DNA of 64,000 bases from Blasia pusilla (Eukaryota): NCBI GenBank assembly GCA_050084515.1, contig CM114271.1, positions 28,830,001 to 28,894,000 on the forward strand, in the 5' to 3' direction. Below are positions 4,994 to 47,882 of the stretch, piece by piece. Each line of letters opens with the position of its first letter. Position 1 is the stretch's first letter. Under the pieces are notes generated by a model, which did no database searches, was not told the origin of the DNA, and saw only the letters and a program-made list of their open reading frames with translations. The position numbers and the translations under genes were made by a program.

Positions 4994-5106
4994 AACCCTA
5001 ATCCTAATCCTAATCCTAATCCTAATCCCAATCTCAATCCTAATCCTAATCCTAATCCCAACCCTAACCCTAATCCTAATCTTAACCCTAACCCTAACTA
5101 ACCCTA
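4994..5106 (+). repeat. Telomere-like hexamer array (CCTAAT/CCCTAA)n, about 19 units
   Basis: Directly visible: aaccctaatcctaatcctaat...aaccctaaccctaa. Confidence 0.9.
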
Positions 5107-5159: not shown

Positions 5160-6154
5160 GTGAGTACAAAATGTAGCAGTTCAGGTGTCTCATGAGCTTG
5201 ACTATAACTCAATCTTCAATACCTTTGAGGGAGAGGATGGTGTCTTTGCTTCACAACAAGCTATTTTGCCTATTTATTTGGAGTGGTGGAACTTTCCTCT
5301 ATAGTCGCATCTGCTCTCGCAGCCTTTTTGGGGAGCTGGGCGTTGGTAGCACCGATTATGGCTTCAAGGTTTCTCCAAGCAGATACACCTATCTTGATGG
5401 ATCATATCGCCCATGTAGAGGAGGGAGACTTGTTATTTCAACATCAACTGAGATCTACACAAGCTCTTCTTCCTCTTGCTACACAAGCAATTCTAAGCCC
5501 TTTTAGTCAACTAATTACGGAAGGGCTTAATCGACTTCAAGAGCATATCTCCAAGAATTTGCATCAAATGAACTTTTCCAACATTCTCTCCGAGGCATCC
5601 TCTGACGCTAATCAAGCTCGTCTACGTTCATGTGCGGGTACCACAACGGGTGCGTGGCTTACTGCAAATCCTGTTATTCTTCCATTTCATCTTCCTCGAA
5701 GTATATTCTCGATAGCTTTGTGGTTACGTCTTGGACTTCCCCATACTTCTTTCTTAGGTGTGCCAAATTGTGTATGCGGGGATCCCATTGATACCAATGA
5801 TATCCATATTTTTTGACGTGCACATGGTGGAGAACGAACGGCCACACATGATGTCATTAGAGAGGCGGTAGCATTGGTGGTTCGTACTGCAAGATACACC
5901 GTTGGGCAAGAGCAACTCTATGTCCTACCTTCAACCACACAAGCAACCTCTCGTCGAAGAGTGGATCTTGTTATGTCTCGAGGTGGATTCCGGACACTAG
6001 GTGATATGGTGCTTGCTGATCCAACACGTTCTGACTTGGTGTGTCGAGCCGCACATACCAAAGGTTTGGCGACCGAAGCAGCAACAAGAATCAAGGAGTT
6101 AAGTTACGTTGTGAGACATGCGACTGATGGATTATTCCTTTGCAATAGAAGTAT
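5160..6154 (+). mobile_element. CRE-clade-like non-LTR retrotransposon fragment (post-RT region, zinc finger and restriction-like endonuclease), left part
   Basis: Translated motifs QQAILPI, AAFLGSW, ARLRSCAG..GAWL, LRLGLP, CVCGDPID...H..(C)..GGER...HD, RRVDL, D...DPT and K...Y match the RLE C-terminus of CRE/Cnl1-like elements. Interrupted by the gypsy insertion at 6155. Confidence 0.75.
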
Positions 6155-6670
6155 TGCCACGTCTTTTAGAATAGGTCGTGGAGATATAGTAGAGCACCTT
6201 CGTGAGTAGTGGAGGACACGCTCAGTAGGTCGAGGATGACCTGATGAGGCCCCGAGAAACCTGAGAGAGCAGGTTTCCCCTTCGTTTCGACTCATTTGGA
6301 GCCATATTGAGGAACTTACTATTTTAGGTAAGTATTATTTTGAGTATATGATCGACTTTCTATTTTTGGTAAGTGATAATTGACCTCCTACATTAGGTCA
6401 AGAGCCAAGGAGGTGACTTGGGAGAATAGGTTACCATGGAGAGAGCTTGGGAGAGGGGAGGGGTATACCTCAAGGAGAGAGAGCTTGAGAGCTCATTCTC
6501 TCTTTGTTGAACCTCTTGGCATGAGGCGGCGGAACTATGGTCCCTTGCCTTGTGAGTGTAACCCAAGCCTCTCATTAGGAGAGTGGGTTTGGTTTGACAT
6601 GAGAGAGAGTGCAGACCTTTGAGAACTATGGTGTGAGATGGTGTAGAGAGAGATTGGATCTTACTTTACA
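6155..6670 (+). repeat. Terminal repeat A1 of copy 1
   Basis: Highly similar to 15979-16492; ends ..cttactttaCA. Confidence 0.9.
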
Positions 6671-7249
6671 AAGAGAGAATGAGAGAGTGAGAGAGCTTCA
6701 TAGGGGAGCTCGCTGGTCACTCGCTGTTTTTCCAGGTTGGGGACCGTGCTTCCCATTCAACGGCTCATGGGAGTGCTCACCGGAGCAAGGGCTGCTTTGA
6801 TTGTTCTTTGCATTTGCCGATTTTTCGTGTGGAAGAGTGGCGCGCGAAAACGTAGCCCAAGTTCTGATAGGGATTGATTATGGGGGCAGGTTGCCCCATG
6901 TCGGTGCTCTCGGGAGCACCATGTAGCTTGCTGATTTGTATTTTTATAGGTTTTACATTTTGGTTGGGAGAAATCAGCACGGAAGCGTTGCCCAATTTTG
7001 TGTAGGAGAAAGAGACATTGGGCATTACGACAGTCCCCGTCAATTTTTACTGGAATGTCCAATTCCAAAAAATTTGACGTTGTTGTAGATCGTAAAGCTA
7101 TGCATGTTGTGCAACAAACAATGCGCAATTTAGAGTTGCGAGTAAAAAGTTATGGTCAATATTGCAAAACTGCCATTGCTAGGCGATTTTTAGGGTTAAA
7201 TTGTTCAAACCCTAAACCAGCGGCCATGCCGGCGGCAGCCGTCGCCGCA

Positions 7250-7355
7250 CCGTCACCGATCAATGGTCAACCATCACTATGGATGGTCAACCATCACCAT
7301 CAACGGTCCGTCGTCACCATCAACGGTCTACCGTCACTGTCAACGGTCCACCGTC
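7250..7355 (+). repeat. Degenerate ~20-bp tandem repeat (ccatcaccatcaacggtcnn), about 5 units, in the gypsy 5' leader
   Basis: Directly visible. Confidence 0.7.
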
Positions 7356-8146
7356 CACCGGCCACCGTCGGCCGTTGCCGTTGCCCAGCGTTGCTCAGAG
7401 CTGCATTCGGCCGTTTTCCACCCTTTGGTTGCCATTGCCGCCATTACGAAGTGGAGGGTCTTCCACGACCATCGTTGATTCTCTGACTTGCGCCGCCACC
7501 ACGTACTTTGGTTTGGCCGCCACCGTCATCGCAGTTTCGTCATCAACCAGTGATGATAGATGACCTCCAGTTATGGTGTTTGAGTTTTGATTTCATGTTG
7601 CTATGTTGTGATTGGTAGCCTCCCGACGACGATCAAGTACCGTGCCTTGACGCCCGTAGCTGCAACGCGCCGCCGATTGCCGCGCCGTGCCGCTCGTGGC
7701 CGCACAACACCGTCGATCGCGGAGCCGCACCGTCATTGTGGAGCAGAGTGTGGGTTTATTTTTTATTGAGGAGGATATGCCACCGAGTGCCGCATCCCAC
7801 CATCGAGGGCCATGCCGTTCGTAGCTGTTTTGTGCCGCCTCCAATGCCGCACCGTTTCGCTGGAACCGCACTGTCCATCAAGGATTTTTAAGCATCGTCA
7901 GTACGGGAGGAGTATGACTTGTTGATTGGAGGAGTTGTCTCCACAACCAAGTTGGGGTCGAGATTTGCAGTTGCTGAGGAGCGACATCAACATGTGTTCA
8001 GGTTACCCGTTTTGGTCCTTTACCCTACACGTGTGAGGGATTCTGGGATTTTGGTAGTTTATTTGGGGATATTGGGTGTGTGGATGCTGAGAGCATCATT
8101 TATGTATGTGGTTTAGGGGACATAGACCTGTGTGGGATGTCTGGAG

Positions 8147-8405
8147 TTGAGGGTAGGTTGTCGATGAGATGATAGCCTGGTCGATTTGCCGCACCACGCT
8201 GCTTATTGCCGCACGTTACACGTCTCCGGGAGGGAGAGTGTAGATCGAGTGCCGCATGTTTGGGATGAGTGATTGAGGGTAGGTTGTCGATGAGATGATA
8301 GCCTGGTCAATTTGCCGCACCACCCCGCTTGTTGCCGCACGTTACACGTCTCAGGGAGGGAGAGTGTAGATCGAGTGCCGCATGTTTGGGATGAGTGATT
8401 GAGGG
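8147..8405 (+). repeat. 126-bp tandem duplication upstream of gag
   Basis: Units start at 8147 and 8273, with a partial third at 8399 (ttgaggg..). Confidence 0.9.
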
Positions 8406-11319
8406 ATTACTTGCGAGGTTGAAAGTGATCGTGTGAGATGCGTGTAGAGAAGTTTGTGCACGAGGCACGAGGGCCATCAGGGCGTCCTTTCAGGATTTTG
8501 AGAGGCAAGGTAGTGGACCCGAGAATAGCTTTGGAGGGTTTGCCCGGAGTGGTGCGAGGTTTCGAGAGTCTCCACGTGAGAGACCATCTCGATCTCCTTC
8601 TGTGTCGTCTTCAGACGAGGGGGAGTGTGTAGAAGAGTTTGTGAGCACATCGCCACACATTGTGAGTGGTCCTATTAGGTGCACGTACGAGATGGACGAT
8701 CGGGGTAGAGGACCATGTAGGTTTTCAGGTGTAGTAGGCACGATTGAGTTGCACAATTTCATAGCAGAGTTTAGGAGTTGGTGCGACTCCTAGCGGGCCA
8801 CGAACTCTAGAGAGTTCAACCCTTTTACAGCATGGAACGGTATGTTCCAACATTTAGAGGGGACGCCCATGGACAATTACCATGAGTTCTCTCAAAGATA
8901 TGCACGTGAGATCGAGGCGTGGAGGCTCTACTATGATCCACATTATGTGTCATGGATGGAGCTGTTCCCAGATGAGGAGGAGAAGTCAAGAGAGGCTACT
9001 TCCTCTTCCACTAGTGATGTTTTAGGAGGGGTCACTCGTACGGGAGCAATTGGACCGTCTCGTCGGGTTCGTCCCAAGTTCAACCCTGTGGTTGAGTTCT
9101 TTGTTGAGTTGAGGGCGAGCTACCAGGGGATACGGATGGAGAAGTTGCGGAGCATCCACGACTTCCAGAGGCGCCCGGGTGAGAGTTTGTGTGAGGCTTA
9201 CACTCGCTTCCACCGATTGATCAACGTCACTCAGGGGGTGACAGAGGCTCAGGCTATCCAGTCATGGTACGCGATGCTGGACCGGATCCTGCGGACACAG
9301 GTGCGGGAGGGGGTGCTTCTTATGAACATCTCCCCTACGTTGAGAAATGTTTTTAGGACTGCCAAGAACATTGAGCGCAACATGGCGGAGGAGAGCGTAA
9401 CCACCATGGGTTCTGGGCGAGAGCAATCACGATTGACTGCACTACCTGTGCAGTAACGTGGACTTAGAGATAGGTCAACTGTGGCACCACGAGCTCAAGG
9501 AGGATGCCGGGAGGCCGTGCCACAGAAACCTGCGCCTTCATATGCGGCTCAGCAAAAGCCGCCTTCTATTACTTGTTGGTCATGTGGTGGAGCCCATCAT
9601 CAACGCGATTGCACTTGTCAGGGTCATGGACGTGTGTCTCAGCATGGAGGAGGAGATGGTGCTGCACTAGGAGGTTATCAGTGTGACTATTGTCAGAGGT
9701 ATGGTCATACACGCGCGAGGTGTTTCACTTTACATCCTGAGTTACGTCCGGACCGAGGGCCACAGAGAGCACCACAGCGAGTAGCCGGTCCGAGTGGGCT
9801 ACAGATCGTGCACCAGGTGGTCCCGTTGGGAGACAAGGAGCTGGAGTTTCCCAATAGGGTCGTGGAGCTGCCCGTGGAGGAGGTAGAGTCCTTCCACCTA
9901 GACGCGTCGAGGGAGATGCCGGGCGTGAGGCTAGGATGGAGCAGCCAGAGATATGGAGGATCCTGGTTGGATGTGCGGGGTTGCCCACATGGAGGCCGCC
10001 GCAGTTGTGACGGGTGGAGCAGCCGCAGAGTTGGATCCACAGCAAGGGGAAGCCAAGAAATAGACTAGACTTCCTCAATCTTTCACGTTGTCCGAGGCGA
10101 TAAGGACCCCATCGATGGGTCTGGATTAGAGTTCCTGAAGATTTGGTGACGTTGTTGGTGTGCAAGCACAAAGGGCGATGGGAGAAGCGAGTGCAACGAC
10201 TCCTGTTGTTGATGCTCAGGAGGGGCATGTGTCGAGCACGTTGTTGGGGGCGGCCACCATTGTGTACCGCGCTCCTTTATTTTCTGCGTCTGATGTTATG
10301 ACGTAGGGGGGTACGCCCGCCGAGGCTTTTCGGCTGGCCGCTACGCTATGTGAGTGTGGAGTTGGAGTTCCTGCATCACGTTCAGAGGTGATTGCAGAGG
10401 AGATGATGGACCTGCCCTTGGAGTGGATACTCGGGCTGTCCACGTCAGATTCATGGTAGGCTGTGGTTGCTAGGATGGCGGAGATGCCCGCTAGACCCGC
10501 GATAGAGTGTGCCATGGCTTCTCCTGGTGTTGTGTTTTTTGGTTAACCGAGGAGAGGTCTTCCAATTGGTGAGTCCCGGAGGTAGAGCTTTTAGTCCGCA
10601 GCACATTTTGTTGGATTTAGGAGCGCAACCCTTGATGTTGGGAAAAGCGTCATTCAAAGGATTGGGCTTGACGAGAGCCGATGTGGAGCGTTGTCCATTG
10701 CGGATACAGACATCCTTGGGTGGAGCGAGTACCACATAGTATATCACCCGACAGGAGGTCGTGGTGAGGATTTGCCCGGGACATCCTACAGATGAGTCTG
10801 TGGTGCGAGCCAAGGCAATAGTGACTAATGTAGAGTCCTACGATGTCTTGGTTGGTGGAGCAGTGTTATACCCGATGGGGTTTTCCCTGGATTACTGGGC
10901 AGAGTCAACGTCCTACAGACCAGGATGGCAGTCAATGATGGATGACTTAGCTCATTACCCGTTCGATTCACATGTGCAGTGATCGAGCAACGGCCAGGAG
11001 TGATGGCGACCTTAGTAGCATTTAGCAGTGCCATTACTTTGCCTAGTGATTTGATTGAGGGACATGTCCATGCAGAAGATACTCCCGTTCCTGACATTTC
11101 TATGGAGACGAGTGTTATGGTAGTCGCATCATTCCGTGGAGGAGAGGTGCCGTTGTGGGGCTCGACTAAGGAGCTTCAACGATTGGCAGATGAGCACGTG
11201 CAAACCGCATGGAGCAAGGTGTTTGCACCGGAGCATGACGGGTCTGAGGAACCCGAGGTAGCAGGGAGTGCTACCATGATACCCTTGGATACCACACCCA
11301 TTGTGTGGTGTACCCCGGA

Positions 11320-12270
11320 GGAGGGTATTCGAGTGTTAGATCTCTTTGGAGGAATTAGCATCGCGTTAGCTGCTGTTTTGCAAGCAGGAATGCGAGTACA
11401 ATAGTACCTATATGTGGAGAGTGATGATGTTGCGAGGCGCATCTCATTACAACATGTGGCGCAGTTACGCCTACGTTTTCCTGACTTATTGTTTGCGTCC
11501 GTGATACAGGGATACCAGAGTTCCCTACCAAGGGATATTTCGTTGTTGGGGGCGCAGGACTTACAGCGGGTAGGGACCATTGATTTGGTCATTTCTGGTT
11601 GGCCATGTCAGGGCCAATCGAGTGCTGGATAAGGCAGCGGGTTGGCTGATACTCGATCCATGTTGTTTTGGGAGATGTTGAGGGTCTTATGGCAGTTGTA
11701 GGAGCACCACTCTCGTTCTCCAGCCTACATTCTGGAGAATGTGCCCATCTTAGGAGACTCCAGGTCACGGGTCGTAACGAGTGCTCATCAAGTGTGTGCC
11801 TAGATCGGCCCAACAATGTTCTTGGATGTGGCGAGTATAGGTTCTAGAGCCCATCGCCCCCGTTTATGGTGGACCAACTTGGTGCCCCATACGATGTTAT
11901 GGAGGGCGTATGCGAGAGTGGAGTGCCCCTCCCATTTGTTAGTGGATTCCATTCTGAATGCAGGTCGTCGATCACAGGCAGTGAGGCACAATGATCCACC
12001 ACCGTTGACTGTGGTGAACAGGGTAGGCAGGCCGTGGGCAGCCTTTCCCACGTTTGTGAGTTTTCCCGCTTCCTATGCATACAAGAAGGCCCGTCCTGGC
12101 TTGGTTTGGGATGACCAGGTTCAGAGGTTGGTGGAGCCCAACGCCAACGAGAGAGAGTGGGCAATGGGATTCCCCCCAGGAGTGACGGCAATCCCGTCAG
12201 TATCAGAGGCATCACGACGCCATGTCTTGGGTCAGGCGATGGACCTGAACTATTTGACATGGATCTTTAG
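11320..12270 (+). pseudogene. DNMT3-like C5-cytosine methyltransferase domain within Pol
   Basis: Motif I VLDLFGG (11333-11353), motif IV GWPCQ (PCQ 11603-11611), motif VI ENV (11735-11743), motif VIII AHRPRLWWTNL (11849-11881), motif IX ERE.AMGFP, motif X RRHVLGQAMD. Same reading frame as RT, broken only by in-frame stops. Confidence 0.9.
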
Positions 12271-15200
12271 CTTGGGAGTGGCTAAGCAACATCGGATGAG
12301 ATCGCGACAGATCACAGCGGTTGTGTTGGTGAGCCCCATGCCTACCGAGACGGTGGAGGCACTGGCTAGGGGCGAGACCCGAGGAGATCGACACACCAAG
12401 GGAGATCTAGAGAGACACCCTTGGACTTCTTGGGATGTTTTGCAGGTACGCCAGGAGATGATAGCCACAACATCGAGCGTGGTTCCGGGCACTGCATGTG
12501 GAGGAGATCAGAGTTTGCAGTTGGCTATAGGAGAGCGGTCGAGTGTTGTTGTTCGAGACGGGGTTGCACCATAGCAACCACCGATATCCGCATCGGAGAG
12601 TCCTACCGTAGTCACGATGGAGACTTGGGAGCCAAATATGGGCCCTAAGTTGATAGTAGGAGATCGGTGCCGAATACATCCGTTCCTCAGGAGTTATAGG
12701 AGCTGCTTTGCGTTTAGCATGGAGGATTTGGGTACGCTGAAGGGACCGGGGATCCGCATTGAGTTGTCGAGTGATACGCCGATCTTCCGACGACCCTACA
12801 TGTACAGTGATATGGAGAGGGCTCCGATTCAGAGTCGAAGCCAGGACTTGGTTGGAGCAGGACTAGTGGAGATGTCGCATGGGGAGTATGCATCTACCAC
12901 TGTCATGCCCGCCAAGAAGGATGGGCATGGTAATTGGACGCATAGGCGGATGTGTGGGGATTACCGATCTATCAATCGACAGACAAAGTCCGATAGGTAT
13001 GCCATGCCCACCCCTGAGGAGATCTTTGATGCGATTCGTCGTGCAAAGGTTTTCAGTTCATTGGATTTGCGAGCCAGATACCATCAGCTGCCTATCAGAT
13101 TGGAGGACAGGCACAAGACGGCATTTTGGGGCATCGATCCTCATGGGAAGGATTGTTTGTACCAATGGCGGTTCTTACCATTTGGGTTAAAGAACGCCCC
13201 GGCTGAGTTTTAGAGGGTCATGGATAGGATCTTGGCTGGTCTGGATTTTGGTAGGTGCTATATTGATGACATGGTAGACTTTAGCGCCACGATTGAGGAG
13301 CATGAGCGACATCTAAAGGAGGTGTTTGGAAGATTGCAATTACATGGGCTGAAGCTACATCCAGACAAGTGCAAGTTCTTCTACGACCAGATTGAGTATT
13401 CGGGTCATACAACCTAGGGGGCCTTGGTGTTTAGCAGACAAAAGTAGAGGCTATCTCACGCATTCCACGCCCTACAGATGTGAGCCGTGTTCACGCATTC
13501 ATGCGATTGGCGAACTTCTATCGGCGGTACGTCAAGGGATTCAGTTCGATTGCAAAGCCGTTGACCTTGCTGACCAACGTGGATCACGAGTGGCACTAGG
13601 GGGATGAGCAGGAGCGAGCATTTCAGTTGCTCAAAGATATGTTGATGTTCGCGCCCATCTTGAGGAGACCAATCAAGGGGCGTCCTTTCCAGTTGCACAC
13701 AGATTGGAGCATGTTGGGGCTTGAAGCGGTGCCCACCCAGTATGATGATGAGGGTAGAGAGTTTGTGGTGGCTTACGCTAGCCGCTCAAACAATGCTGCA
13801 AGGCAAAGTATAGCTCGTATGAGGGTGAGTGCTTGGCTGTGGTGTGGGTTGTCGCGCATTTCAGGTATTACTTATTCGGCAATCCCTTTACCATCATCAC
13901 TGATCATCAACCACTGAAGTGGTTGATGGAGTCCGACAAGCTTACACGGAAGCTTGCGAGATGGGCTCTGTTGTTGCAGGAATATGATTTTCAGGTGGTA
14001 CATAGACTTGGGAGGCTCAACCAGGATGTAGATGGGTTGAGTCGTAACCCATGCCCAAGTCAACGAGATGCAACTAGAGCTTGATGGCATGGAGAGAGTG
14101 ATGAGAAGTCAATGCAAGGATGGCACGCGTCAGCCTATTTAGGCATGTTGGCTATGGAGAGCCAGAGTATGGAGATTTCAATGGCGAGGTCTAGTGAAGA
14201 GTCCTTGGAACCCGAGGCCAGTGAGGAGACGAGAGATGGCCGAGATATTCATGATGATGGAGTAGTCTTGGAGTACCTTCGGACTGGCAGCATTGCGAGC
14301 ACCGTGGGTGCTAGAGAGCAAGATCGGATCCTGCAGCGGGCCAGACGGTTCCGTTGGGAGGGGACACATGTTTCAAGGGTTTGGGAGGATGGCAGAGTAC
14401 GCATAGTGCCGCATCCTTCGCAGAGAGCACAACTAGTGCAGCATGCCCACGAGGAGTTGGGTCACTTTGGGGTGAAGCGGACGTACAACTTGCTTCAGAT
14501 TCAGTATTGGTGGCGAGGCATGCAGACTGACGTTCAGCAGTTTATTGCGAGGTGCATGGTGTGTGATCGGATCTGAGCATCGTTCAATGCTCCGACTCCA
14601 CAGTTGCATCTATTACCGATCATGGGCTTAGGGTATAGATGGAGTTTGGATTTTGCAGGACCTTTGCCTTTGACGGAGCGTCACAGTCGTTATGTGTTGG
14701 TGATGGTTGAGCACTTCTCGAAGTGGATCGAGTTGGTTACATTGCCTGATAAAGCGAGTGAGGGAGTAGCTCATGCCTTCCTTGATAGAGTGCTGAGTCA
14801 TTATGGCGCACCGACTGAGGTGTTGACAGACCAGGGTACCGAGTTTTGCGGTGAGTTCCACGCCTTGTGTGATTAGGCATTGATCGACCATCGCATAACT
14901 TCGCGAGATCATCCTAAGGCGGATGGATTAGAGGAGAGAGTTGTGTAGACAGTGAAGAGGGGTTTACGCAAGTATGGCTTGCAGAGAGGTCACCTAGGAG
15001 ATTGGGACCTTCAGTTGCCCCGGTTGGCGATAGGATACAGATTCAGCAGGCAAGCATCCTTAGCGTCTTTTTCACCGTACTTGCTACTTTATGGCCGAGA
15101 GCTAGATTTACCTATGGCCATTCGTTGAGATGATGGTGAGGTGCTGGACCTTGATGACCCAGATGTATGGATGCGAGCATGTTCTTAGAGGGCTGAGTTG

Positions 15201-15525
15201 TTTCAGAGAGTGATGCCCATGGCGTTCGAGAACTTGGCGATTGAGGTATACGACTATTCGGGGTGGTGGTTATCGACCAACTATCCGTAGGTTTCATCAG
15301 GGAGATTATGTCTACTTGCAGCAGACGACACCGACGACGTTGGATGTGACTCCAGGGTGCATTATCCTGAGAGTGCGTGATGTTTTGCCATCCGGTGTTC
15401 TCTTGTTGGAGAGACGTGATGGTATGGTATGGAAGGACCATGTGCGTAATTGTGCGCCATGTCACCTTCCTAACATTGATGGTACAATAGATCCGAGCTT
15501 AGCAATAGTTCCTACAGGCTTGCAT

Positions 15526-15663
15526 TGTATGTTGTGTGGTTCTGCCCGTGGTGCGACCACGATGCTAGTCTGTGATGGATATTCGAGAGGTTGGCATATG
15601 GCATGTCTGATGCCACCTCTCACTAGGGTTCCTCGGAGACGATGGATGTGTCCCAAATGTACA
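15526..15663 (+). other. PHD finger at the integrase C-terminus (copy 1)
   Basis: CMLC..MLVCDG(Y)SRGWHMACLMPPL..VP...WMCPKC fits C4-H-C3 with the conserved W; the fourth Cys has decayed to Tyr here but is intact in copy 2. Confidence 0.88.
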
Positions 15664-15850
15664 TAGAGGAGATACTAGGTAGGTTTCGATTCCGAATTTT
15701 TCTGTGACATGGATGACAGGAAGGTGACTAACGATGGGGCCATATGAGCACCCGACCTTCTTGCTCTTAGCGTTTGAGAGATGTATGTCACGGTAGGTAT
15801 GGATAGATGGCTATCTAGAGTTAGAGGGGCCTAACCACCAGCTAGGGGGG

Positions 15851-15976
15851 TGATTGGAGATATTTTAGTACTTCTTGTCTCGTTGGATGTCATGAGTAAG
15901 CATGGGATCGTGCGTGTTTGTGTGTGTGTTCGGTGATAGCGATGTATGTTGTGTAGCGATGTGTATGTGCACGACA
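15851..15976 (+). repeat. Repeat B1 of copy 1, directly after the polypurine tract (AGGGGGG, 15844-15850)
   Basis: TGATTGGAG...GTGCACGACA; repeated at 16492-16602. Confidence 0.88.
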
Positions 15977-15978
15977 AC

Positions 15979-16602
15979 TGTCCCGTCTTTTAGGATAGAT
16001 CGGTGAGATGTAGTAGAGCGCCTTCGTGAGTAGTGGAGGACACACTCAGTAGGTCGCAGATGACTTGCTGAGGCCCCGAGAAACCTGAGAGAGAAGGTTT
16101 TCCCTTCATTTCGGCTGATTTGGAGCCATATTGAGGAACTTACTATTTAAGGTAAGTACCATTTTGAATATATGATCGACTTCCTATTTTTGGTAAGTAA
16201 CCCTTGACCTCCTACATCAGGTCAAGAGCCAAGGAGGTGACTTGGGAGAATAGGTTACCATGGAGAGAGCTTGAGAGAGGGGAGGGGTATACCTCAAGGA
16301 GAGAGAGCTTGAGAGTTCATTCTCTCTTTGTTGAACCTCTTGGCATGAGGCGGTGGAGTTATGGTCCCTTGTCTTGTGAGTATAACCCAAGCCTCTCATT
16401 AGGAGAGTGGGTTTGGTTTGACATGAGAGAGAGTGCAGACCTTTGAGAACTATGGTGTGAGATGGTATAGAGAGAGATTGGATCTTACTTTATTGGAGGT
16501 ATTTTCGTACTTCTTGTCTCGTTGTTTGGATGCCATGAGTTAGCATGGGATCGTGTGTGTTTGTGTGTGTGTTCCGTGACAGCGATGTGTATGTGCACGA
16601 CA
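15979..16602 (+). repeat. A2 (15979-16492) fused to B2 (16492-16602)
   Basis: A2 matches A1 and B2 matches B1. Separated from B1 by the 2-bp spacer AC. Confidence 0.9.
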
Positions 16603-17005
16603 ATATTCAGTCATTTACATGTATCTTTTGATACTTTCCTGAAAACATCTACTCATCACTCCCTCGAGAATCATCACCTTGCCCCTTCTTGTAGTCCTTC
16701 TCTCTCGGTAGTTACTACCTATTCTCGGCAATGCATCTCAGTGGCCTTACAATGTGCACAAGCCTTGGCATTGATACATCGTGCAGAGGTGGTGGGGAGT
16801 CACTCACCTCGTCGTCCATTCATGTCTAACCAACCTCTCGTGTTCTTGTCAGTTTGTTTCAGGCTATCAATCATGTATCTCGTTGAGCCGATGTTTGCGT
16901 TGGCTTGTTGCCATTTTCTTTTTGCATTCGTTTATGCATTTTTTGACTCCTCTTTTGAGTTGGTATTACCTTTCTTTGTCCTCTTTTGAGGTTTATTTTA
17001 TAATA
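16603..17005 (+). mobile_element. CRE-like non-LTR element, right part (end of the RLE domain and 3' region)
   Basis: FSHLHVSFDTFL....ISVALQCAQALALI continues the RLE domain cut at 6154. The 3' boundary is approximate. Confidence 0.7.
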
Positions 17006-34745: not shown

Positions 34746-37700
34746 TATCATGACCATACGGATTATGTCGTAGAGTATAGTGTGCTAGTAGAGGCCATAC
34801 CTTATGTAGGGCTGTAGAGTCTAGGTAGAGATGCGATTTCATACATAGGGTTGGGGGTTACTCAATTGAGGGTGACTTTTCCAATAGGGCCCGCACTTAG
34901 GTTGGAGGATATAGTGTGGAGAGCACTCAAAGAACAGTTAGTTCTTTGAGTTGAGCCTGTTGCGTTGGGAGTTACCCTTGGTAGTGAGTAGAGCTCTTGG
35001 CTATGGTGGTTCCCGCAAGCTTCGACCTGGATTCTCCCATCGTGGAGTGGGTTTGGCTCGATTGTATGTGATTCTATACGTGTTTTATGACAGTAGATCT
35101 TTCACGGATTTCACTCAAGGAACTGGAGAAGATCGATGGTAGCTTCGATCGTGGATCAGTAGGATCTGGTTAGGGCTGATTGTGTACTCAGCCGTGGATG
35201 TTCGTGGCTTGTGGCCTATGTTGGAGGTGGGAATCTGGTGCGTGGTTGGTTGAAAAAGAAGCGCCTTGCTGAGAGCTTTCCAACGCGCTTTAGATCGTCG
35301 GATTTTGTCAAGGGAGTTGGAAGTCATCAAGGATTGAAGGTTCTAGTTCATGTTCGAAGGTTTTCTGATGTGGAGAGCTTGGAGTGCGGAAGCTGTGTTG
35401 AAGCTCATCCAGATCGGGTGAGAGGTTCCTATTGCTACCTGTATTGTGATCTCATGTGAAGCTATCTGCTTGAGTGTGTGGAGCGTTGCGTATTTCTGTG
35501 TGCATGAATCTCGGCGGAAGCGTTGTCGGATTTGCGATTCTGGAGGTGTGCGGAAAGCAAGTTTGTCTGATTTTTAGCTCGGAGTACAGAGCTGGGTTGT
35601 AGTTGTTTTTTGTGGAGAGATAGCTATGGTGGCCAATTGAATTTAGGTTGAAACAAATTCAATTTTGGTTGAGGATTTGTGGAGTAATTGCTGATCGAAA
35701 TTTTGCGGACTAGCTCAAGGTCTGGCTATGGTGGACAGCAGATCGGAGGGGCTGGTTGGTTGGTGATTTGTCCGTTGTTGGAGGCTTCGAGGCAACTCGT
35801 GGTAGATCGGGGCGAGTGGGCGTGAGAGCCCGAGTAAGGAGCAAGCAAGCAAGCTGCTTGCTTGGGCGTGAGGCAGTTTTTCCAAGATTTGTGAGTTGAG
35901 TGTTGCATAACTGGTCACCCATCTTTGGGCTATTCTACCTGGAAGACGCTTATCTGCTGAGTTCTTAACTATGCCAGTGTACACACTGGTGTAGCTCATT
36001 TGATGTTTTTTGGAGATGTGTTAGGCACTTTATGCATCTTGGGTTTTCGGTTGATGGACCTCTAGCGCATAGTACGGTGTAGCCTCTCCATGAAGGTGAT
36101 ATTTTCAAGGCCTGTAAGTGCGACTAGCGCGTCATCGACCAGCGGCCGAGTAGCTATTGCGTTAGAATTTTGTGGTGGATTTTGTGGATTCAAGGGGCGC
36201 CACGTTTGGTGGATTTTGTTACCTTGATTTCCATTTGCGATTGGAGGGTTGTCATTGGATTTCCTGTATTTGGATCCCCTCCATCGTTGCTTCTTGCTTG
36301 CGCGCCCATTGTTAGGGTTGACATTGATTTCCTGAGTAGTGTTACTCCTGTGTGCTACCGATAGTGAGGCTGGAGTGATGACCAGTAGACCGTGGGAGGC
36401 TTCTTGTGGCGATGATAGGTTAGGTTTCCTACACCCATAGCTAGTAAAGCTAGAATAATACAGCGACATCGACGTCACTTGGTTACTTAGTGGTGGTGAT
36501 TTGGTGGTGGTGCGGCATCGGCGTTGGTCATCACGGAGCTGTCTGTTGGTCTAGTTGGGGACCGTGGTGCGGACAATGGTGGTCTTACACGGAGTGGATT
36601 GAGGTATCGGCTACCTTTTCCACTTCCGACTGGGTGTAGGCAACCTAACGTGTCCTCCTCGTCCTCCTCTTCACTTGGTGTTCCAAACACCGAGTCTTCT
36701 ACGTTGTTATTGAGTGTTGCAGCTCCATTGATTTGGGACATGGACGGGATATATGGGGCCATGAAGGGCCCACGATGATACTCGGGTGCAGTGGGCACCA
36801 TTGAGTTTCAGGACTTCATTCAAGAGTTTGATACGTGGTGTGATATGCAGATGTTGCGGAACGCCATATTGTTTACATCCTTCTTGGCTTGGAAGGGGTT
36901 ATTTCAGCACTTGGAGGGACCACCCATGGATGATTACCATGAGTTTAGGAAGGACCATGTTGCTGAGATTGAGGCGTGGGGACAATATTGGTCTCCAGGC
37001 TATGTGTCTATCACCCATGGTGGTATTGGTAGTAGTGCTCCTACTTTGCCAACCAGCCCGACGTTGAGTGGTACGAGTACGAGCAGGAGTGGGGGTACCA
37101 ATGGAGATACCCATGGAGATTCTAGTGGAGGTACCAGTGCCCCACCATCGTTCAGCCCGGTTGCAAGTTCTTCAAGAGGTTGAAGAAGAACTATCAGGGA
37201 GTGAAGATAGAGAAGTTGAGGAGTCTTCAGGAATTTGAGCGAAAGACTGGTGAGAGTCTTCGTGAGGCATACACTCGTAAGCGACCCTTGATTTCAATTA
37301 CCCAGGGTGTGACTAAGGCTCAGGTAGTCCAGTTTTGGTATGGGATCTTGGACAGAGAGTTGCGCTGCAGGGTACGTGATGCTACTCTTATGAGTGATAA
37401 TTCACCCACATTGACCCATGTATTTGCTCTATCTGAGAAGATTGAGCTTAATATGGTGGAGGAGAGAGTGGTGACATCTGCATTCAGTAGGGATACAACT
37501 ACTACTTCTCGTGTTCAACAGTATACCTCACAGTCTCATAGTAGTGGTGGTGGTAGTAGTAGTGGGAGTCGTGGGGGGTACACACGACCTCAATCAGGTC
37601 CTAGAGGGACACTTGCGCAGAGACCATTTCCTTCAGTTGCTGCCCCGCAGCAAGGACAGTCATGTTGGACATGTGGAAGTGATCATGTTAGGAGGTTTTT

Positions 37701-40700
37701 TCCCCAAGAGGATGGGAGACGGACTTTGGAGGATGGGCTTCAGTCGGCCCCAACTCAGTGTGATCATTGCGGGAGACCATGTCATCCTCGAGAGCGTTGC
37801 TTTGATAGTAGACACGGATGCAGCATCCACTGCAGTATTGCGGATGGCAACTTCAGTGTTGGGATCTCCATTGTTTTCAACCACGGAGCTGATGGCTTTA
37901 GGAGTTGACTTAGCTCCTGTATTTCAGCTAGCAGGCACGTTGTGTGAACGTGGGGGTGTTACTGCTACACATGTTGAGGTGGATGAGGGTGTTGCAGTGG
38001 AGCGACCCTCTATGTCAGGTATAGCATTGAGTACCAGTGCTACTTGTCAGGCAGCAGCGGCGAAGATGGATGCATTACCATCCCGGCCAGCCATTGATCG
38101 TGAGAGGCTTACACCTCGTGTATGTATAATGAACAACCGGAGTGGGATATTCCGATTGGTGAGTCCTACAGGACATGTGTATAGACCAGATAGAGTCTTG
38201 TTAGACTCTGGTGCCCAACCTTTGATGTTGGGAAAGGCGGCATGTATTGGTTTGGGTATTCGGAGGTCAGAGCTTGAGCCTTACTATCGCGACCCTCATG
38301 ACCAAATGAGTGCCAAGCGGAACATTGGAACATTAGCGGGCTCACGCTAAGATGGTTTGCGCGTTGGAGTAGTCTCAAAGAGGAGACAAGAGACGAGACG
38401 CGAGCGAGGCTTCGCGATTCAGATGTTGTGGTCGCGACCAAGAAACCTAGACCAAACGCGGAATGAGACTTGAAAGAAGTCGAGTCTAGAATCCGGATTG
38501 GAACGCCACTAGCGTTTGAGAGTTTCCGACTGTATTTATAACCATAACTTTAGCGCCAAGATGCGTTTGGATTAAATAAGGGTGTGTTGGAAAGCTTATG
38601 GAAAGCCGGTTCAAATGCACTAAAGATCTATGCAAACGCATAAGCAGCGGCTGAGAAACAACCCGGAAACGACTATAAGTGGAGTCGGGTTGAGGGCCAC
38701 AATGAAGGGCCAGACCCTCCTTTTCCAAAGGGGGGCCTACTGGAGAACCCCAGAAGTACTAGTAAGGGGGAAGGTCTCCGAGAGTGCTTGGAACCCGAAC
38801 CCCACTTTGGGCGCCGCGGGGCGGCTCAAGGGCATGGAACGGAACGCAAGTTTGGGAGTTGGGTTGGAAAACCTGAACCAAGTCCATGAAGGCGATTTTA
38901 GACATCCCTCTTGGATTTCACACCGCGACTTAATTACTTGGGTCTCTGTTTGGAGCTCACACGAGGTCCGTTGAATAGTTGGGATCGCTAGGCGCGCAAG
39001 TGCCGTTTCAGATCCCTGGACTAACCAGAAAGTCTGTTCCAAGTCTTGAAGGACTTGCCATGTTTTGGAAACTAGGAATTAAGGAAGGTTGAGCTTGATG
39101 AGACGCCGAGTTGAGAACTTGGTGGGTTGGAACGCTGGTTGGCCCAGACCGGACTAACGAGAGTGCGTGTTTGGGTGCAGATCGGCGATGAGATCGTGAC
39201 CTACTGAACGCACGCTTCCGCAACACTAAAGATTGACGTTAGGGGCGCGACACTTGCCCATTCCAGATTCAAACATCACTTGGAGGAGCCAATGATAGGT
39301 CTCAATTCATGACACGAGAGAAGTTGTCTGTAGAGTTGAGACCAGATCATGCGAGTGATAGCTCCCGGTTGGGAGTATCTGCAGTGGTCACATCAGCCGA
39401 GTCGTATGATGTACTAGTTGGAGGAGCAGTATTGTACCCGATGGGTTTTCAGATGGACTACTGGACTGAGGCAAGGTCTTATCGACCTTGCATAAGACAT
39501 TTTATTGGCAGTCCGGAGATGGACGTATGAGCCAGGTTCCTGTGAGATTTATTTATGGGGCTCGACCAGGAGGGTCTTCCCCAACGGTGTTAGCATCTAT
39601 GGTTGGTTTTAGTGGAGTAGTCACTTGGCCAGGAGACTTTTTGGAGGGTAATGTTTCTGCTATGGATTCTCCTGTGCATGAGGAGGTAGAGGAGGTCCCT
39701 TGTTTTGCAACAGTGGCATCTTCATCGTTGGATGTGTCACTTTGGAGTTTAGGCGGTGCACTACGGCAAGAGGCTGATCGCCTAGTGCAGGAGGCTTGGT
39801 GTGAGGCTGTTATATATACCTCACGAGGAAGAGAAGGCTCCACAGCAGACTCCTACTTCTGGTCCAGTTGGGTTATCCCCTTTGGATACTACACCCATTG
39901 TATGGCAATATCCGCCGGAGGGCATTTGTGTGTTAGATCTCTTTGGTGGGATTAGCACTGGTTTGGTTGCAATGTTGCAGGCCGGTATTCCTGTGCGGAG
40001 ATACATGTATGTGGAGGGAGATGAGACGGCCCAAAAAATCTCATCCCAACATATTGGTCAGTTGATGCGGAGATATCCTGAGTTGTTGCCGCCATCAGCT
40101 ATTCGTGGGTACCAGCGTGCTTTGCCGTCACACATTGATAGTATCTTGGATACTGGACGACTTTCTCACGTGGTGAGGGTTATTGATCGATCACCCATGG
40201 CAGTGGTGAACCATGTGGGCCAGCCTAGGATGGCACTAACCCGATATTTGTGAGTTTTCCCTTGTCACATGCCTACAGAGAAAGTGGTCCCGAGCTTGTA
40301 TGGGATTCTCATGTGCGACAGTTGGTGGAGCCTAACATTGATGAGAGAAAGCGTGCGATGGGATTTGCTACTGGCGTGACAGGGGTTCCTTCCATTTCTG
40401 AGGCTTCACGACGTCATGTGTTGGGTTAGGCCATGGACCTGGATTTTGAGTCTCGGGATGGCCGAGCAACGTCGACTTCGGACTTTGTCTATGGATCTTC
40501 CACCCCTTATGATGAGCTCCATGGCTACCTGGACGGTAGAGATATCAGTTGGGGGCAAGGAGAATAGTATTTTGCATCCTTGGAGTAAATTGGATGCATT
40601 TTGGGGTGTCAACTCTTATGGCAAGGATTTTTTGTACTAGTGGAAATTCGTACCCTTTGGGTTGAAGAATGCATCTGCCGAGTTTCAGAGAGTGATGGAC

Positions 40701-44004: not shown

Positions 44005-45585
44005 TATCGTGCGCATGTATGTTGTGCAAAATAGAAATCATTTCCAACATCCATCGGCTATCATGCACACAAGTCTAAGATCCATCTAACTATGAATCCT
44101 AACATATTCTCTACACATGAACAACTAGACAATCCCAATGTAAAATGCGACATTGATGAACTTTGCAATCAACTTTGCTTCATCCAAACATCCATTCAAC
44201 AATACACAGTACGATAATAGTAAGAGAAAGTATGCAATAAACTCTCAATGAGTGAAATCTACGATCAATCCTAACCCACTCTTCAAGAGAGAATCCAAGA
44301 TCAATATATGTAATTTGCGCTGCATCATAGATCCCAACATGGGTTCGATCCAAGGAAGATGAGATCTGAATGAGCTTCATCTGAGATATATCCTCGTGGA
44401 CACCTCCATGAGTGGTCTATATACATAGGTAGGCTCCTCCTAGCATGTCATCAATAATATGTAGTAGACAAGGTACTAACTCCCTAACAACTACACACGT
44501 GGTCTTGTCATAACACTAGCTACTACTCAACTACCAACTAGGCCTCGACCTTATAGATCCAATTAAGTGGCTCCACACAAACGATGAGAGGGTCAACCTC
44601 TTCAAGGTTGCCACTCCTCATAAAGGGAAGGATGACTTACGCTCATCGGTCACCTCCTAAGAGAAGGTCACATATGACCTCTCAAAATAAGGAAGTACAA
44701 GACCCCACTAATGCCTCGATACTATCTTGCCCTACATCTACCATGATAATTATCATATGAATACACATCGCTACCAACATACATCGGTTTTCATGCACAT
44801 GAGTCTAACATCCATCTAACTATGAATCCTAACATATCTACACATGAATAACTGGACAACCCAAATCCCCCCCTAGCTGATGGTAAGGTTCCTCTAACTC
44901 CAAATAGCCTACAAAATAAGTCTAAATATATATCATGCACCTTTTCGGTGGTAAGATCATGAGGCCGAGTGCTATGTCGCTCCATCGTTAGTCATATTCC
45001 TACAATCCATAACATGAAGAGTCATCTTGTAATCTATCTATCACACCTATGTATATTTGGGACAAAGCCAACATCCTTGAAGAACCAAGTAAAGGACGTT
45101 GAACTAGTATAGTCCTTGAACCACGCATAGTTGCATACCTCAGAGTATTGCGATGTTATACGAATCATACAATAATCAGGTTCCCAAATGCCTTATGCAT
45201 GACTCTTTGAAAGATCTCAGCCCACCGAGAACATGCTCGCACCCACATGTCTAGATTGTCAAGGTCAAGTACCTCAACTACATCTTGTCAAATAGCTGAT
45301 AGTATATCTGGCTCTCTCCCATAGAAAGGTGAAAATCTTGCTAAAGGTGCTTGCCAACTAGAGCAATAACCCATCACCAACCACAGCGATTGTAGGTCCT
45401 GATCTTCTGAGTGTCCTCTACAACCCATACGCGGAATCCTCTCTTTACCGTCTTCACAACTCTCTCTACCAAACCATTTTCCTCTAGATAATCTCAAGAA
45501 GCCGTATGATGATCTATTAGTTTTTTATCACATAAGGCTGAAACTCAGCCCTAAACTGAGTACCCAAGTCTGTCAACACCTTCGT
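44005..45585 (-). mobile_element. 3' end of a divergent family member (copy 3): integrase/PHD remnant, PPT, B1-AT-A2-B2
   Basis: Minus-strand remnants EVLTD, HRNTLRYAT, W.CPK. PPT G-run at 44867-44873; B1 44866-44751; spacer AT; A2 44748-44139; B2 44138-44005. Confidence 0.75.
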
Positions 45586-47301: not shown

Positions 47302-47882
47302 TGTCGTACCAATACACATCACTGCCAACATTCATCGGCTGTCATGCACACACATGTCTAAGATCCATCTAGCTATGAATCCTAACATCTCTACACATTA
47401 ACAACTTAACAACCCCAATATAAAGTTGAATACGCACTGTAAGCTCTTATGAAATCTGCAATCAAGTGTGCTTCATCCAAACATCCATACTCATGATTCA
47501 GATATACATTGGTGTAACAACAAGAGAAAGTATACACAAGGATTCCCAAAATGTGTGATCTCCTTATTGATCACTCCTAGCCCACTCTTCAAGAGAGAAT
47601 CGAGGCTCAATACATGCAAGCCGCGTTGTATCACGGATCCCAACAAGGGTATGCAATCATAAGGAGATGAGCTCCAAATGAGCCTCATCCAAGGTATATC
47701 CCCTTGGGCACCTCCATGAATGACTTGTACACATAGGTCACTACCAACCTATAGTACACACATACTAACTTCCTAACAATTACATATGTGGTCCCTTCAT
47801 GGGACCAACTACGAACTAACCCACGACCCTATAGGTCCAAGTGGAGCCATACATGGCTGGGAAGGTCAACCTCTCCAAGGCT
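47302..47882 (-). repeat. Isolated A-B terminal unit (B 47418-47302, truncated A) related to copy 3
   Basis: Direct-repeat similarity to 44005-44610. The terminus ..GGTACGACA (minus strand) truncates the integrase fragment. Confidence 0.7.

What the first reader, a model, noticed from the sequence alone, without database searches (positions are those of the whole stretch)
6155..16602. DDE-integrase gypsy element with split direct repeats (A1...B1-nn-A2-B2): signature of integration through a circle junction
Seen: the left end has only A (6155-6670). After the PPT come B1 (15851-15976), a 2-bp spacer AC, A2 (15979-16492) and B2 (16492-16602). The internal junction reads GCACGACA-ac-TGTCCCG, i.e. 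the two element termini abutted head-to-tail. B1 starts TG right after the PPT and A1 ends CA, so B-nn-A looks like the real LTR, and the A2/B2 joint (actttA|ttgg) looks like ligated LTR ends. The TSD is 4 bp. Established: A1-B1-A2-B2 split repeats are typical of tyrosine-recombinase retroelements (PAT/TOC1/Ngaro) that integrate circles, and IS3-family DDE transposases integrate circles through IR-spacer-IR junctions. Inference: this family makes 2-LTR circles and its DDE integrase cuts at the internal CA-nn-TG site. I do not know of this route being described for gypsy elements, but I could not search the literature.
Basis: partly seen in the sequence, partly recalled or inferred. Interest (0 to 1): 0.92.

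Follow-up and report, generated by a model that had tools for sequence, protein, structure and literature searches.

The report
Gypsy retrotransposon with permuted, split repeats
This is a dead copy of a bryophyte jumping gene that has a retrovirus-type integrase, yet sits in the genome circularly permuted relative to its own reverse-transcription product; the whole family shares this, and it was noted once in print but never explained.

Summary
Element E1 (6155-16602) reads A1...PPT-B1-AC-A2-B2, and a paralogous empty site confirms its ends. It is degenerate: gag, C5-DNA-methyltransferase, RT, RNase H, DDE integrase, PHD finger, no tyrosine recombinase.

It is not a one-off. Two more copies in the window and 80 related metagenome loci show the same plan.
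- 0 of 14 left ends carry B.
- 17 distinct 3' ends read PPT-B-nn-A-B ("long form").
- 15 read PPT-B only ("short form").
- 7 of 8 metagenome copies with both ends visible have perfect 4-bp target duplications.

The inserted ends are TGTC...GACA. They recur abutted inside the element as a palindrome, GACA-RY-TGTC. Reverse transcription marks the other joint: a G-rich polypurine tract lies before B, and a covarying self-priming site lies right after A. So the cDNA LTR is B-nn-A, and inserted copies are permuted relative to it. That points to integration through circular cDNA (inferred, about 0.55).

The repeat plan is already in print for KnitGypsy-Dnmt3 of Klebsormidium (de Mendoza 2018, Fig. 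4c legend), without a mechanism. Unexplained: the mirror-image long form predicted by a 2-LTR circle was never seen.

The parts
6151..6154 (+). left target-site duplication of E1 (GTAT)
   Evidence: empty-site joint 6133->16604
6155..6668 (+). A1, the left repeat of E1. It starts TGCCACG, which is the integrase-type end. It contains the self-primer segment at 6492-6506.
6669..6683 (+). inferred self-priming primer-binding site (CAAAGAGAGAATGAG). It is a perfect 15-nt complement of 6492-6506.
   Evidence: 0 of 1000 control 18-mers reach 15 nt
8794..10068 (+). gag-like region, with a weak Retrotrans_gag hit below the Pfam cut-off. I read two CCHC-type motifs in the printed translation by eye. 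Stop codons are present.
11402..12400 (+). C5 cytosine DNA methyltransferase domain, broken by stops. The Pfam DNA_methylase hit covers 11534-11770.
12944..13985 (+). reverse transcriptase (RVT_1) and RNase H domains, frame-broken
14415..14915 (+). integrase: H2C2 zinc finger (14415-14570) and rve DDE core (14634-14915)
15526..15660 (+). PHD finger at the integrase C-terminus
15844..15850 (+). polypurine tract core AGGGGGG, followed by TGA and then B1
   Evidence: conserved in relatives
15851..15976 (+). B1 (repeat homology starts about 15853; ends GCACGACA)
15977..15978 (+). 2-nt spacer AC inside the palindrome-like joint GACA-AC-TGTC
15979..16492 (+). A2
16493..16602 (+). B2. It ends GCACGACA, which is the right integrase-type end. 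The A2|B2 joint lies at 16492/16493.
16603..16606 (+). right target-site duplication of E1 (ATAT)
34746..43460 (+). E2, a related copy (about 70% nt identity) in the 'short form' A-internal-PPT-B. The flanking TSD is CCCC/TCCC. It sits inside a repeat whose uninterrupted paralogue lies inverted at 38289-39238. RNase H and integrase reading frames are long and open.
44020..45581 (-). E3, the 3' part of a third relative on the minus strand: PPT, B1 (44866->44751), spacer AT, A2 (44748->44140), B2 (44139->44020)
47302..47885 (-). E4, a truncated A joined to B (an A|B joint and a B end) on the minus strand. It abuts a plus-strand internal fragment at 45586-47300, which is 84% identical to E1 12772-14492.

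Best explanation
E1 is a decayed member of a streptophyte clade of Ty3/gypsy-type retrotransposons. They encode gag, a C5 DNA methyltransferase, RT, RNase H, a DDE integrase and a PHD finger. Inserted copies are circularly permuted relative to the reverse-transcription product.

Shown:
- Copies insert with the ends 5'-TGTC...GACA-3' (A-start and B-end) and make a 4-bp target duplication.
- The same two ends lie abutted inside the element as the palindrome GACA-RY-TGTC.
- The polypurine tract sits just before B.
- A self-complementary primer-binding site sits just after A.

Inferred, step 1 (about 0.8): RNA runs from inside A1 to inside A2. Tf1-like self-priming and the polypurine tract then give a linear cDNA with the LTR B-nn-A at both ends.

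Inferred, step 2 (about 0.55): this cDNA is circularised, and the integrase nicks after each CA of the internal palindrome. That opens the circle into a normal strand-transfer substrate with recessed CA-3'OH ends and 2-nt 5' overhangs.
- A 2-LTR circle gives the long form A-int-B-nn-A|B. This form still has a downstream A and could therefore replicate.
- A 1-LTR circle, or processing of linear cDNA at the two internal sites, gives the short form A-int-B. This form lacks a 3' R and should be dead on arrival.
For: - Domains and order. The DNMT is present in most related loci.
- Family-wide architecture: long-form 3' ends in 17 distinct loci or copies (L001, L003, L004, L013, L016, L031, L034, L040, L060, L069, L064, L073, L076, L080, L041, E1, E3).
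- Left ends: 0 of 14 distinct left ends are preceded by B.
- TSDs: perfect 4 bp in 7 of 8 metagenome copies with both ends visible (TCTC, AAGG, AATC, TTTG, CATA, ATTA, TGTT). The eighth, L046, matches 3 of 4, as do E1 and E2.
- Exact insertion boundaries: fixed by empty-site paralogues for E2 and E1.
- Spacer: 2 nt throughout. It is R-Y in 15 of the 17 long-form joints (AC, AT, GC, GT); the exceptions are TC in L069, whose two same-site copies L070 and L074 read GC, and AA in L064. It lies in the context GACA-nn-TGTC.
- Polypurine tract: AGGGGGG lies 0-3 nt before B-start in every locus listed.
- Primer-binding site: in 10 of 13 copies the 9-16 nt right after A-end are an exact complement of a segment of A 85 to 177 nt before A-end (156-177 nt in 8 of the 10). 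Three different sequences are used in three lineages. At most 11 of 1000 control windows did as well.
- A|B joint: it is exactly A-end fused to B-start in all lineages. Two aberrant joints, L001 and L003, retain extra nucleotides that match the PPT-proximal CGA, as expected if heterogeneous cDNA ends are ligated.
- Expression: stranded RNA reads of the host species cover the family in sense orientation.
- Precedent: retroviral integrases are reported to cut the palindromic LTR-LTR junction of 2-LTR circles (PMC1905944, PMC1180852, PMC4372172; seen only as listing and abstract openings).
Against: - No circle was observed. All evidence is from integrated copies.
- A 2-LTR circle holds two identical palindromes, so the mirror form A|B-nn-A-int-B should be as common as the long form. 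It was seen at 0 of 13 left ends, against 6 long forms with both ends known. It may be lost quickly through its 340-bp tandem A repeats, but that is untested.
- The A|B joint is uniform in 9 of 11 loci of the main subfamily. This fits inheritance of the joint as well as precise ligation.
- The spacer behaves as inherited sequence. My earlier idea that it is made anew each cycle was wrong.
- Short forms (15 distinct) could all be B1xB2 deletions of long forms.
- Every copy examined has broken reading frames.
- TSS and poly(A) sites were not resolved. Molecule ends at 6181 and 16353 rest on only 5-8 molecules.
- 3 of 13 copies lack an exact primer-site complement.
Confidence: 0.55

Rival explanations
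1. DIRS/PAT-like restoration without end ligation. The transcript runs through A2|B2, so that joint is inherited. The internal B-nn-A joint then serves as a template to rebuild the element's ends. The integrase acts on the rebuilt linear or circular full-length cDNA.
For: - The repeat plan is the same as in PAT/Ngaro elements (PMC5890265 legend; PMC7192593 passages).
- The A|B joint is uniform in 9 of 11 loci.
- Only one of the two possible permutations is ever seen, 0 of 13 mirror forms. That is natural if the whole A1..B2 order is copied.
Against: The conserved polypurine tract and the covarying self-priming site sit exactly at B-start and A-end. Ordinary reverse transcription would therefore make B-nn-A LTRs and would never copy B2. 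No primer site is evident next to A-start or B-end. RNA depth falls across A2 and is low after B2, but the bins are coarse.
Confidence: 0.2
2. No circle is needed for most insertions. The integrase engages the two internal CA sites on the ordinary linear cDNA (B-nn-A)-int-(B-nn-A), discards the outer stubs and inserts the short form. Long forms arise only rarely, from end-joined cDNA (circles or head-to-tail dimers).
For: Short forms are at least as common as long forms (15 against 17 distinct 3' ends overall; 14 against 11 in the main subfamily). The three metagenome short forms with both ends visible keep 4-bp TSDs: L007 ATTA and L036 TGTT perfect, L046 3 of 4. No solo A|B unit was found in about 0.9 Mb of loci. 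This argues weakly against frequent repeat recombination.
Against: A short form lacks a downstream A, and hence a 3' R, so it cannot be the replicating form. The long form still needs an A-end to B-start joint. Retroviral-type integrases normally need the CA close to a DNA end (recalled). The sample of loci was chosen by an integrase match, so solo units are under-sampled.
Confidence: 0.15
3. E1 is a one-off rearrangement (tandem LTR, deletion or assembly error) of an ordinary gypsy element.
For: E1 is old and degenerate (A1/A2 93% identical, many stops). The window holds nested and rearranged relatives.
Against: The same structure, with perfect TSDs, occurs in many independent loci and in lineages only about 50% identical in protein. 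It is also reported in K. nitens. No ordinary copy was found, 0 of 14 left ends.
Confidence: 0.02
4. It is a tyrosine-recombinase (DIRS/PAT/Ngaro) element that only resembles gypsy.
For: Split direct repeats A1..B1-A2-B2.
Against: The rve DDE core and H2C2 zinc finger are present, with no phage-integrase hit in the ORFs scanned. TSDs are 4 bp and the ends are TG..CA.
Confidence: 0.02

Closest known systems
KnitGypsy-Dnmt3 of Klebsormidium nitens (de Mendoza et al. 2018, Nat Commun 9:1341, PMC5890265)
   Same: It is a gypsy-type pol with a C5 DNMT inside the polyprotein. Its repeats are arranged 'the same as that of a DIRS retrotransposon' (Fig. 4c legend; I read passages and section 9). K. nitens retrotransposon proteins are 41-49% identical to the E2 RNase H-integrase ORF.
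   Different: The host here is bryophyte-like; the best hits are Calypogeia, Riccia, Marchantia and Sphagnum. The parts of the paper I read (passages matching my search terms and section 9) give no TSD, junction palindrome, PPT/PBS placement, short form or mechanism. Its supplements were not available to me and may hold more. I did not verify that the K. nitens hits are the published family.
PAT-like and Ngaro elements (DIRS order, tyrosine recombinase)
   Same: Split direct repeats A1-internal-B1-A2-B2. The internal joint equals the fused element ends. A circular intermediate is proposed (PMC7192593 passages).
   Different: Those elements use a tyrosine recombinase. As I recall, they make no staggered-cut target duplication. 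This family has a DDE integrase, TG..CA ends and 4-bp TSDs.
Tf1/Sushi group and plant Tcn1 chromoviruses (self-priming LTR elements)
   Same: The primer-binding site is complementary to the element's own 5' RNA rather than to a tRNA. This is predicted for Tcn1 of mosses and club-mosses (PMC6317226 passages).
   Different: Those elements have ordinary LTRs and a chromodomain. This family has permuted repeats, a PHD finger and a DNMT. Phylogenetic placement was not tested here.
Cleavage of the palindromic LTR-LTR junction of 2-LTR circles by foamy-virus and HIV-1 integrase; IS3/IS911-type circle junctions
   Same: A DDE enzyme cuts abutted element ends (CA-spacer-TG) on a circle to make integration-ready ends (PMC1180852, PMC1905944, PMC4372172, listing and abstract openings only; the IS3 family is recalled).
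   Different: In retroviruses the junction is made by joining the LTR ends, and this route is a side path. Here the palindrome lies inside the LTR, is inherited, and appears to be the only integration site used.

Membership tests
Ty3/gypsy (Metaviridae-type) LTR retrotransposon | pol order RT - RNase H - integrase, with a DDE (rve) core | tested here: met
   Pfam RVT_1, RT_RNaseH, Integrase_H2C2 and rve occur in that order in E1 and E2.
Ty3/gypsy (Metaviridae-type) LTR retrotransposon | identical complete LTRs at both ends of the insertion | tested here: not met
   The left end is A only and the right end is B-nn-A-B or B. 0 of 14 left ends carry B.
Ty3/gypsy (Metaviridae-type) LTR retrotransposon | short target-site duplication (4-5 bp) and TG..CA ends | tested here: met
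   7 of 8 metagenome copies have perfect 4-bp TSDs. The ends are TGTC..GACA.
Ty3/gypsy (Metaviridae-type) LTR retrotransposon | protease between gag and RT | tested here: inconclusive
   No Pfam protease hit in E1 or E2. Two related database proteins carry an aspartyl-protease-type Pfam entry (PF13650, PF13975).
KnitGypsy-Dnmt3-like (DNMT-carrying gypsy with DIRS-like repeats) | C5 DNA methyltransferase domain inside pol | tested here: met
   Pfam DNA_methylase E 8e-10 in E1. tblastn finds the domain in most related loci. Marchantia and other proteins combine PF00145 with RT/RNase H.
KnitGypsy-Dnmt3-like (DNMT-carrying gypsy with DIRS-like repeats) | A-coding-B-A-B repeat arrangement | tested here: met
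KnitGypsy-Dnmt3-like (DNMT-carrying gypsy with DIRS-like repeats) | common descent with the K. nitens family | tested here: inconclusive
   K. nitens retrotransposon proteins hit at 41-49% identity.
DIRS order (DIRS1, PAT, Ngaro) | tyrosine recombinase | tested here: not met
   No such hit in the scanned ORFs of E1, E2, L031, L036 or L069. An rve core is present instead.
DIRS order (DIRS1, PAT, Ngaro) | split direct repeats whose internal joint equals the fused termini | tested here: met
Tf1/Sushi-type self-priming elements | PBS next to U5 that is complementary to the element's own upstream RNA | tested here: met
   10 of 13 copies show it. The complements are 15, 16 and 13 nt in three lineages with three different sequences. 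Controls reached the observed length in at most 11 of 1000 windows.
Tf1/Sushi-type self-priming elements | chromodomain at the integrase C-terminus; phylogenetic position | tested here: not met
   A PHD finger sits at that position instead (PF00628 in many relatives). Phylogeny was not tested.

The most novel reading that the evidence does not exclude
A whole clade of retrovirus-like elements with an ordinary DDE integrase obligatorily integrates from circular cDNA. The attachment site is an inherited palindrome (GACA-RY-TGTC) inside the LTR, not the LTR tips. The 'dead-end' 1-LTR and 2-LTR circles of other retroelements would be the productive intermediates here. The split repeats of tyrosine-recombinase elements would have arisen convergently for the same topological reason.
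Probability: 0.45. Interest if true: 0.85.

Novelty: new member of a known kind. Interest (0 to 1): 0.68.

Why it matters
Textbook retroviral-type integration starts from the tips of a linear cDNA, and circles are treated as dead ends. Here three independent landmarks disagree with the inserted ends in every copy examined: the polypurine tract, the self-priming site and the target duplications. The element must therefore pass through a joined (circular or concatemeric) form and be cut at an internal site.

If confirmed, this would be a natural case of circle-junction integration by a retroviral-class integrase. It would also give the split repeats of DIRS/PAT/Ngaro elements a mechanistic parallel.

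In practice, LTR-finding pipelines that expect identical terminal LTRs will mis-annotate this DNMT-carrying family. It is abundant and transcribed in the host of this window.

Tried and rejected
- No whole genome is held for the window, so a census in the host assembly was not possible.
- Earlier scan notes: nothing on this genome or this sequence. The DIRS/Ngaro notes from other genomes did not bear on this case.
- I first read the 2-nt spacer as hypervariable and made anew each cycle. The larger sample shows only R-Y variants plus two exceptions, consistent with transitions in an inherited site, so I dropped the idea.
- The A regions of E1, E2 and E3 share no detectable nucleotide similarity, so they could not be aligned across lineages.
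- Joining E1's flanks gave no continuous reading frame.
- ARAGORN found no tRNA gene in the window. I did not test the post-A sequence against a tRNA library.
- Pfam on ten ORFs of L031, L036 and L069 showed no DNMT, but tblastn with the E1 domain did find it in those loci.
- Sequencing runs: no RNA holder was listed by the index. Raw RNA reads of the same species label were laid instead. TSS and poly(A) sites could not be resolved from the 30-bin table. The many B1-to-B2 'joints' in short contigs are alignment ambiguity, not evidence.
- Literature searches for a described mechanism or for more reports found none. 'KnitGypsy' occurs in one paper only.
- No structure or complex prediction was run.
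Full report
**1. Observation**

- A1 6160-6668 matches A2 15984-16492 at 93.3% over 509 nt. B1 15853-15945 matches B2 16492-16588 at 88.7% over 97 nt.
- The sequence reads ...AGCTAGGGGGG-TGA-[B1]...GCACGACA-AC-TGTCCCG[A2]...CTTTA|TTGGAGG[B2]...GCACGACA|ATATTC. The left end reads ...AAGTAT|TGCCACG[A1].
- The flanking tetranucleotides are GTAT and ATAT, a 3-of-4 match.
- When reads and contigs of the host species were laid on the region, 3 DNA contigs (run X2) and 14 RNA reads (4 in X22, 10 in X23) joined 6133 to 16604 across 20 letters that resemble 6134-6153. I read this as a paralogous empty site..GAAG-TAT-TCAG... It fixes the insertion at 6155-16602 with target GTAT.

**2. What E1 encodes**

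All frames are broken. Pfam still finds the following:
- a weak gag hit;
- C5 DNA_methylase (E 8e-10);
- RVT_1 and two RNase H models;
- Integrase_H2C2 and the rve core (E 1.7e-13);
- a PHD finger after the integrase.

The order RT, RNase H, integrase is that of Ty3/gypsy. No tyrosine recombinase was seen. The closest database proteins come from liverworts (Calypogeia fissa 80%, Riccia sorocarpa 75%, Marchantia) and Sphagnum. Next come Klebsormidium nitens (41-49%) and Closterium. Many Marchantia, Calypogeia and Sphagnum proteins carry the same DNMT domain, and some are fused to RT/RNase H.

**3. Other copies in the window**

- **E2 (34746-43460)** is about 70% identical to E1 and ends PPT-CGA-B...GCACGACA. 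It sits inside another repeat. An uninterrupted copy of that repeat lies inverted at 38289-39238, and alignment against it shows the insertion boundaries to the base. The left flank ends ..AAAAC-CCCC and the right flank starts TCCC-AAATGC. E2 is therefore A-internal-PPT-B with a 4-bp duplication and no A2-B2.
- **E3 (minus strand, 45581 to 44020)** reads PPT-B-AT-A-B.
- **E4** is a further truncated A|B end at 47885 to 47302.

**4. Copies elsewhere**

A profile of the RNase H-integrase region retrieved 80 metagenome loci. Several are the same site sampled twice: L003=L010, L004=L078, L016=L017, L036=L038, L041=L049, L064=L066, L069=L070=L074, L072=L073, L076=L077.

- **Long form.** Self-comparison shows A1...B1-A2-B2 in L003, L016, L031, L064 and L069, and partly in L040. 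B1/B2 pairs 380-900 nt apart (380-570 nt in all but L080) lie downstream of the integrase in L001, L004, L013, L034, L041, L060, L073, L076 and L080. With E1 and E3, that makes 17 distinct long-form 3' ends. L018 and L028 are deletion derivatives that keep A|B2.
- **Short form.** Fourteen distinct loci (L002, L007, L011, L012, L019, L021, L026, L036, L042, L046, L048, L055, L059, L061) and E2 end PPT-B and then flank. Each has at least 600 nt of contig beyond the B end.
- **Left ends.** None of the 14 distinct left ends (L003, L006, L007, L009, L016, L030, L031, L036, L040, L046, L064, L069, E1, E2) has B upstream of A.
- **Target duplications.** Of the 8 metagenome copies with both ends visible, 7 have perfect 4-bp duplications: TCTC, AAGG, AATC, TTTG and CATA in long forms, ATTA and TGTT in short forms. 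L046 matches 3 of 4.
- All copies examined have broken frames.
- The DNMT domain is present in most loci.

**5. The two kinds of ends**

*Integration ends.* A starts TGTCATGACC (TGCCACG or TGTCCCG in E1). B ends GCACGACA. The two are imperfect inverted repeats. Inside the element they abut with a 2-nt spacer: AC, AT, AC, GC, GC, AT, GC, GC, GT, TC (GC in the two other samples of that site), AC in E1, AT in E3, and AA, AT, AC, GT, GT in the more distant lineages. All but TC and AA are R-Y. This is what transitions from GC in the palindrome GACA-GC-TGTC would give. The spacer therefore behaves as inherited sequence.

*Reverse-transcription ends.*
- AGGGGGG lies 0-3 nt before the start of the B repeat in every locus listed.
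- Right after the end of the A repeat, 10 of 13 copies carry 9-16 nt that are an exact complement of a segment of A, 156-177 nt before A-end in 8 copies and 85 nt in 2. The sequences differ between lineages: CAAAGAGAGAATGAG in E1, CTCAAAGAACTATGTT in L016 and AATCACCAAAAGT in L064. Control 18-mers from the same elements reached the observed length in 0 to 11 of 1000 trials.
- E2 has the same pairing with one G-U, by my reading.
- L003 and L006 lack it.
- This is the signature of Tf1-type self-priming, which has been predicted for the moss and club-moss Tcn1 clade (PMC6317226, passages).

*The A|B joint* is exactly these two points fused. It reads CATTTTCA|GTTGTGG in 6 loci and CA|ATTGTGG in 3. 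It is one nucleotide longer in L001 and carries a 19-nt insertion in L003. Both aberrant joints retain bases that match the CGA next to the polypurine tract.

**6. Mechanism**

The cDNA made by ordinary reverse transcription should be (B-nn-A)-internal-(B-nn-A). The inserted copies are circular permutations of this.
- Opening a 2-LTR circle at the palindrome next to the primer site gives A-int-B-nn-A|B, the long form.
- Opening a 1-LTR circle gives A-int-B, the short form.

Nicks after the two CAs of GACA-nn-TGTC would leave recessed CA-3'OH ends with 2-nt 5' overhangs. That is the usual strand-transfer substrate, and the 4-bp duplications fit a DDE integrase. Retroviral integrases are reported to cut palindromic LTR-LTR junctions (listing and abstract openings only).

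Only the long form keeps a downstream A, and hence a 3' R. It should be the replicating form, and short forms should be dead on arrival.

What is shown is the permutation. The circle itself is inferred.

**7. What does not fit**

- A 2-LTR circle has two identical palindromes. The mirror product A|B-nn-A-int-B should therefore be as frequent as the long form. It was seen at 0 of 13 left ends, against 6 long forms with both ends known. If both were equally likely, the chance of that split is about 0.016. Fast loss through the 340-bp tandem A repeats could explain it, but this is untested.
- The uniform A|B joint also fits a DIRS-like scheme in which the joint is copied each cycle (PMC7192593, passages).
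- Short forms could instead come from B1xB2 deletion, or from integrase acting at the two internal sites of linear cDNA.
- RNA reads show sense-strand transcription of the family. For example, depth is 87.8 against 8.9 in bin 14708-15074 of X22. Depth also falls across A2 and B2: 71-126, then 24-34, then 4.5-7.6. The bins and the A1/A2 mapping ambiguity do not place the RNA ends.

**8. Comparison and novelty**

de Mendoza et al. 2018 (PMC5890265) described KnitGypsy-Dnmt3 of K. nitens. The Fig. [quoted passage not shown]

That is the same combination found here: DNMT, gypsy pol and A-coding-B-A-B repeats. The parts I read (passages matching my search terms and section 9) give no TSD, junction, PPT/PBS placement or mechanism, and I could not see the supplements.

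Searches for a fuller description found nothing.

E1 is therefore a new, dead member of a known but barely characterised kind. The following appear undescribed, as far as these searches reach:
- the anatomy worked out here, namely permuted ends, the inherited palindromic attachment site, self-priming, and long and short forms;
- the circle-integration reading that follows from it.

Noticed in passing
window 4997-5097: Interstitial telomere-like array, about 17 copies of a 6-nt unit (CCTAAT with CCCTAA variants), about 1 kb upstream of E1.
   Followed up: partly
window 34025-34737, 43461-43726 and 38289-39238 (inverted): A repeat of about 950 bp of unknown kind. One copy is split by E2, and another lies inverted inside E2, which shows nested insertions. 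A degenerate A-B-like fragment of the E1 lineage seems to lie on the minus strand at about 33700-34000.
   Followed up: partly
window 45586-47300 with 44020-45581 and 47302-47885: A plus-strand RT-integrase fragment, 84% identical to E1, is flanked on both sides by minus-strand pieces of relatives. This is either an inversion or nested insertions. It was not resolved.
   Followed up: no
loci L057, L065/L067, L068, L071: In this more distant lineage (42-50% protein identity) most of the DNMT-like region matches on the strand opposite to the integrase, with a short same-strand piece upstream. The gene arrangement may differ.
   Followed up: no
window 8147-8398: Tandem duplication of a 126-nt unit (96% identical) in the region upstream of gag in E1.
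   Followed up: no
window 5229-6154: E1 is inserted into another repeated, transcribed sequence with a long open frame. Empty-site copies exist in DNA contigs and RNA reads of the host species. Its family was not identified.
   Followed up: partly
window 15243 and 15550: Many RNA and DNA reads diverge from E1 at these points with one consistent sequence (agreement 0.77-1.0). Expressed relatives therefore carry sequence that E1 has lost or replaced near the PHD-finger region.
   Followed up: no
proteins P0123, P0124, P0126 and others: Marchantia polymorpha gene models annotated as hypothetical proteins or as DNA (cytosine-5)-methyltransferase look like pol fragments of this retrotransposon family. 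They may inflate DNMT gene counts.
   Followed up: no
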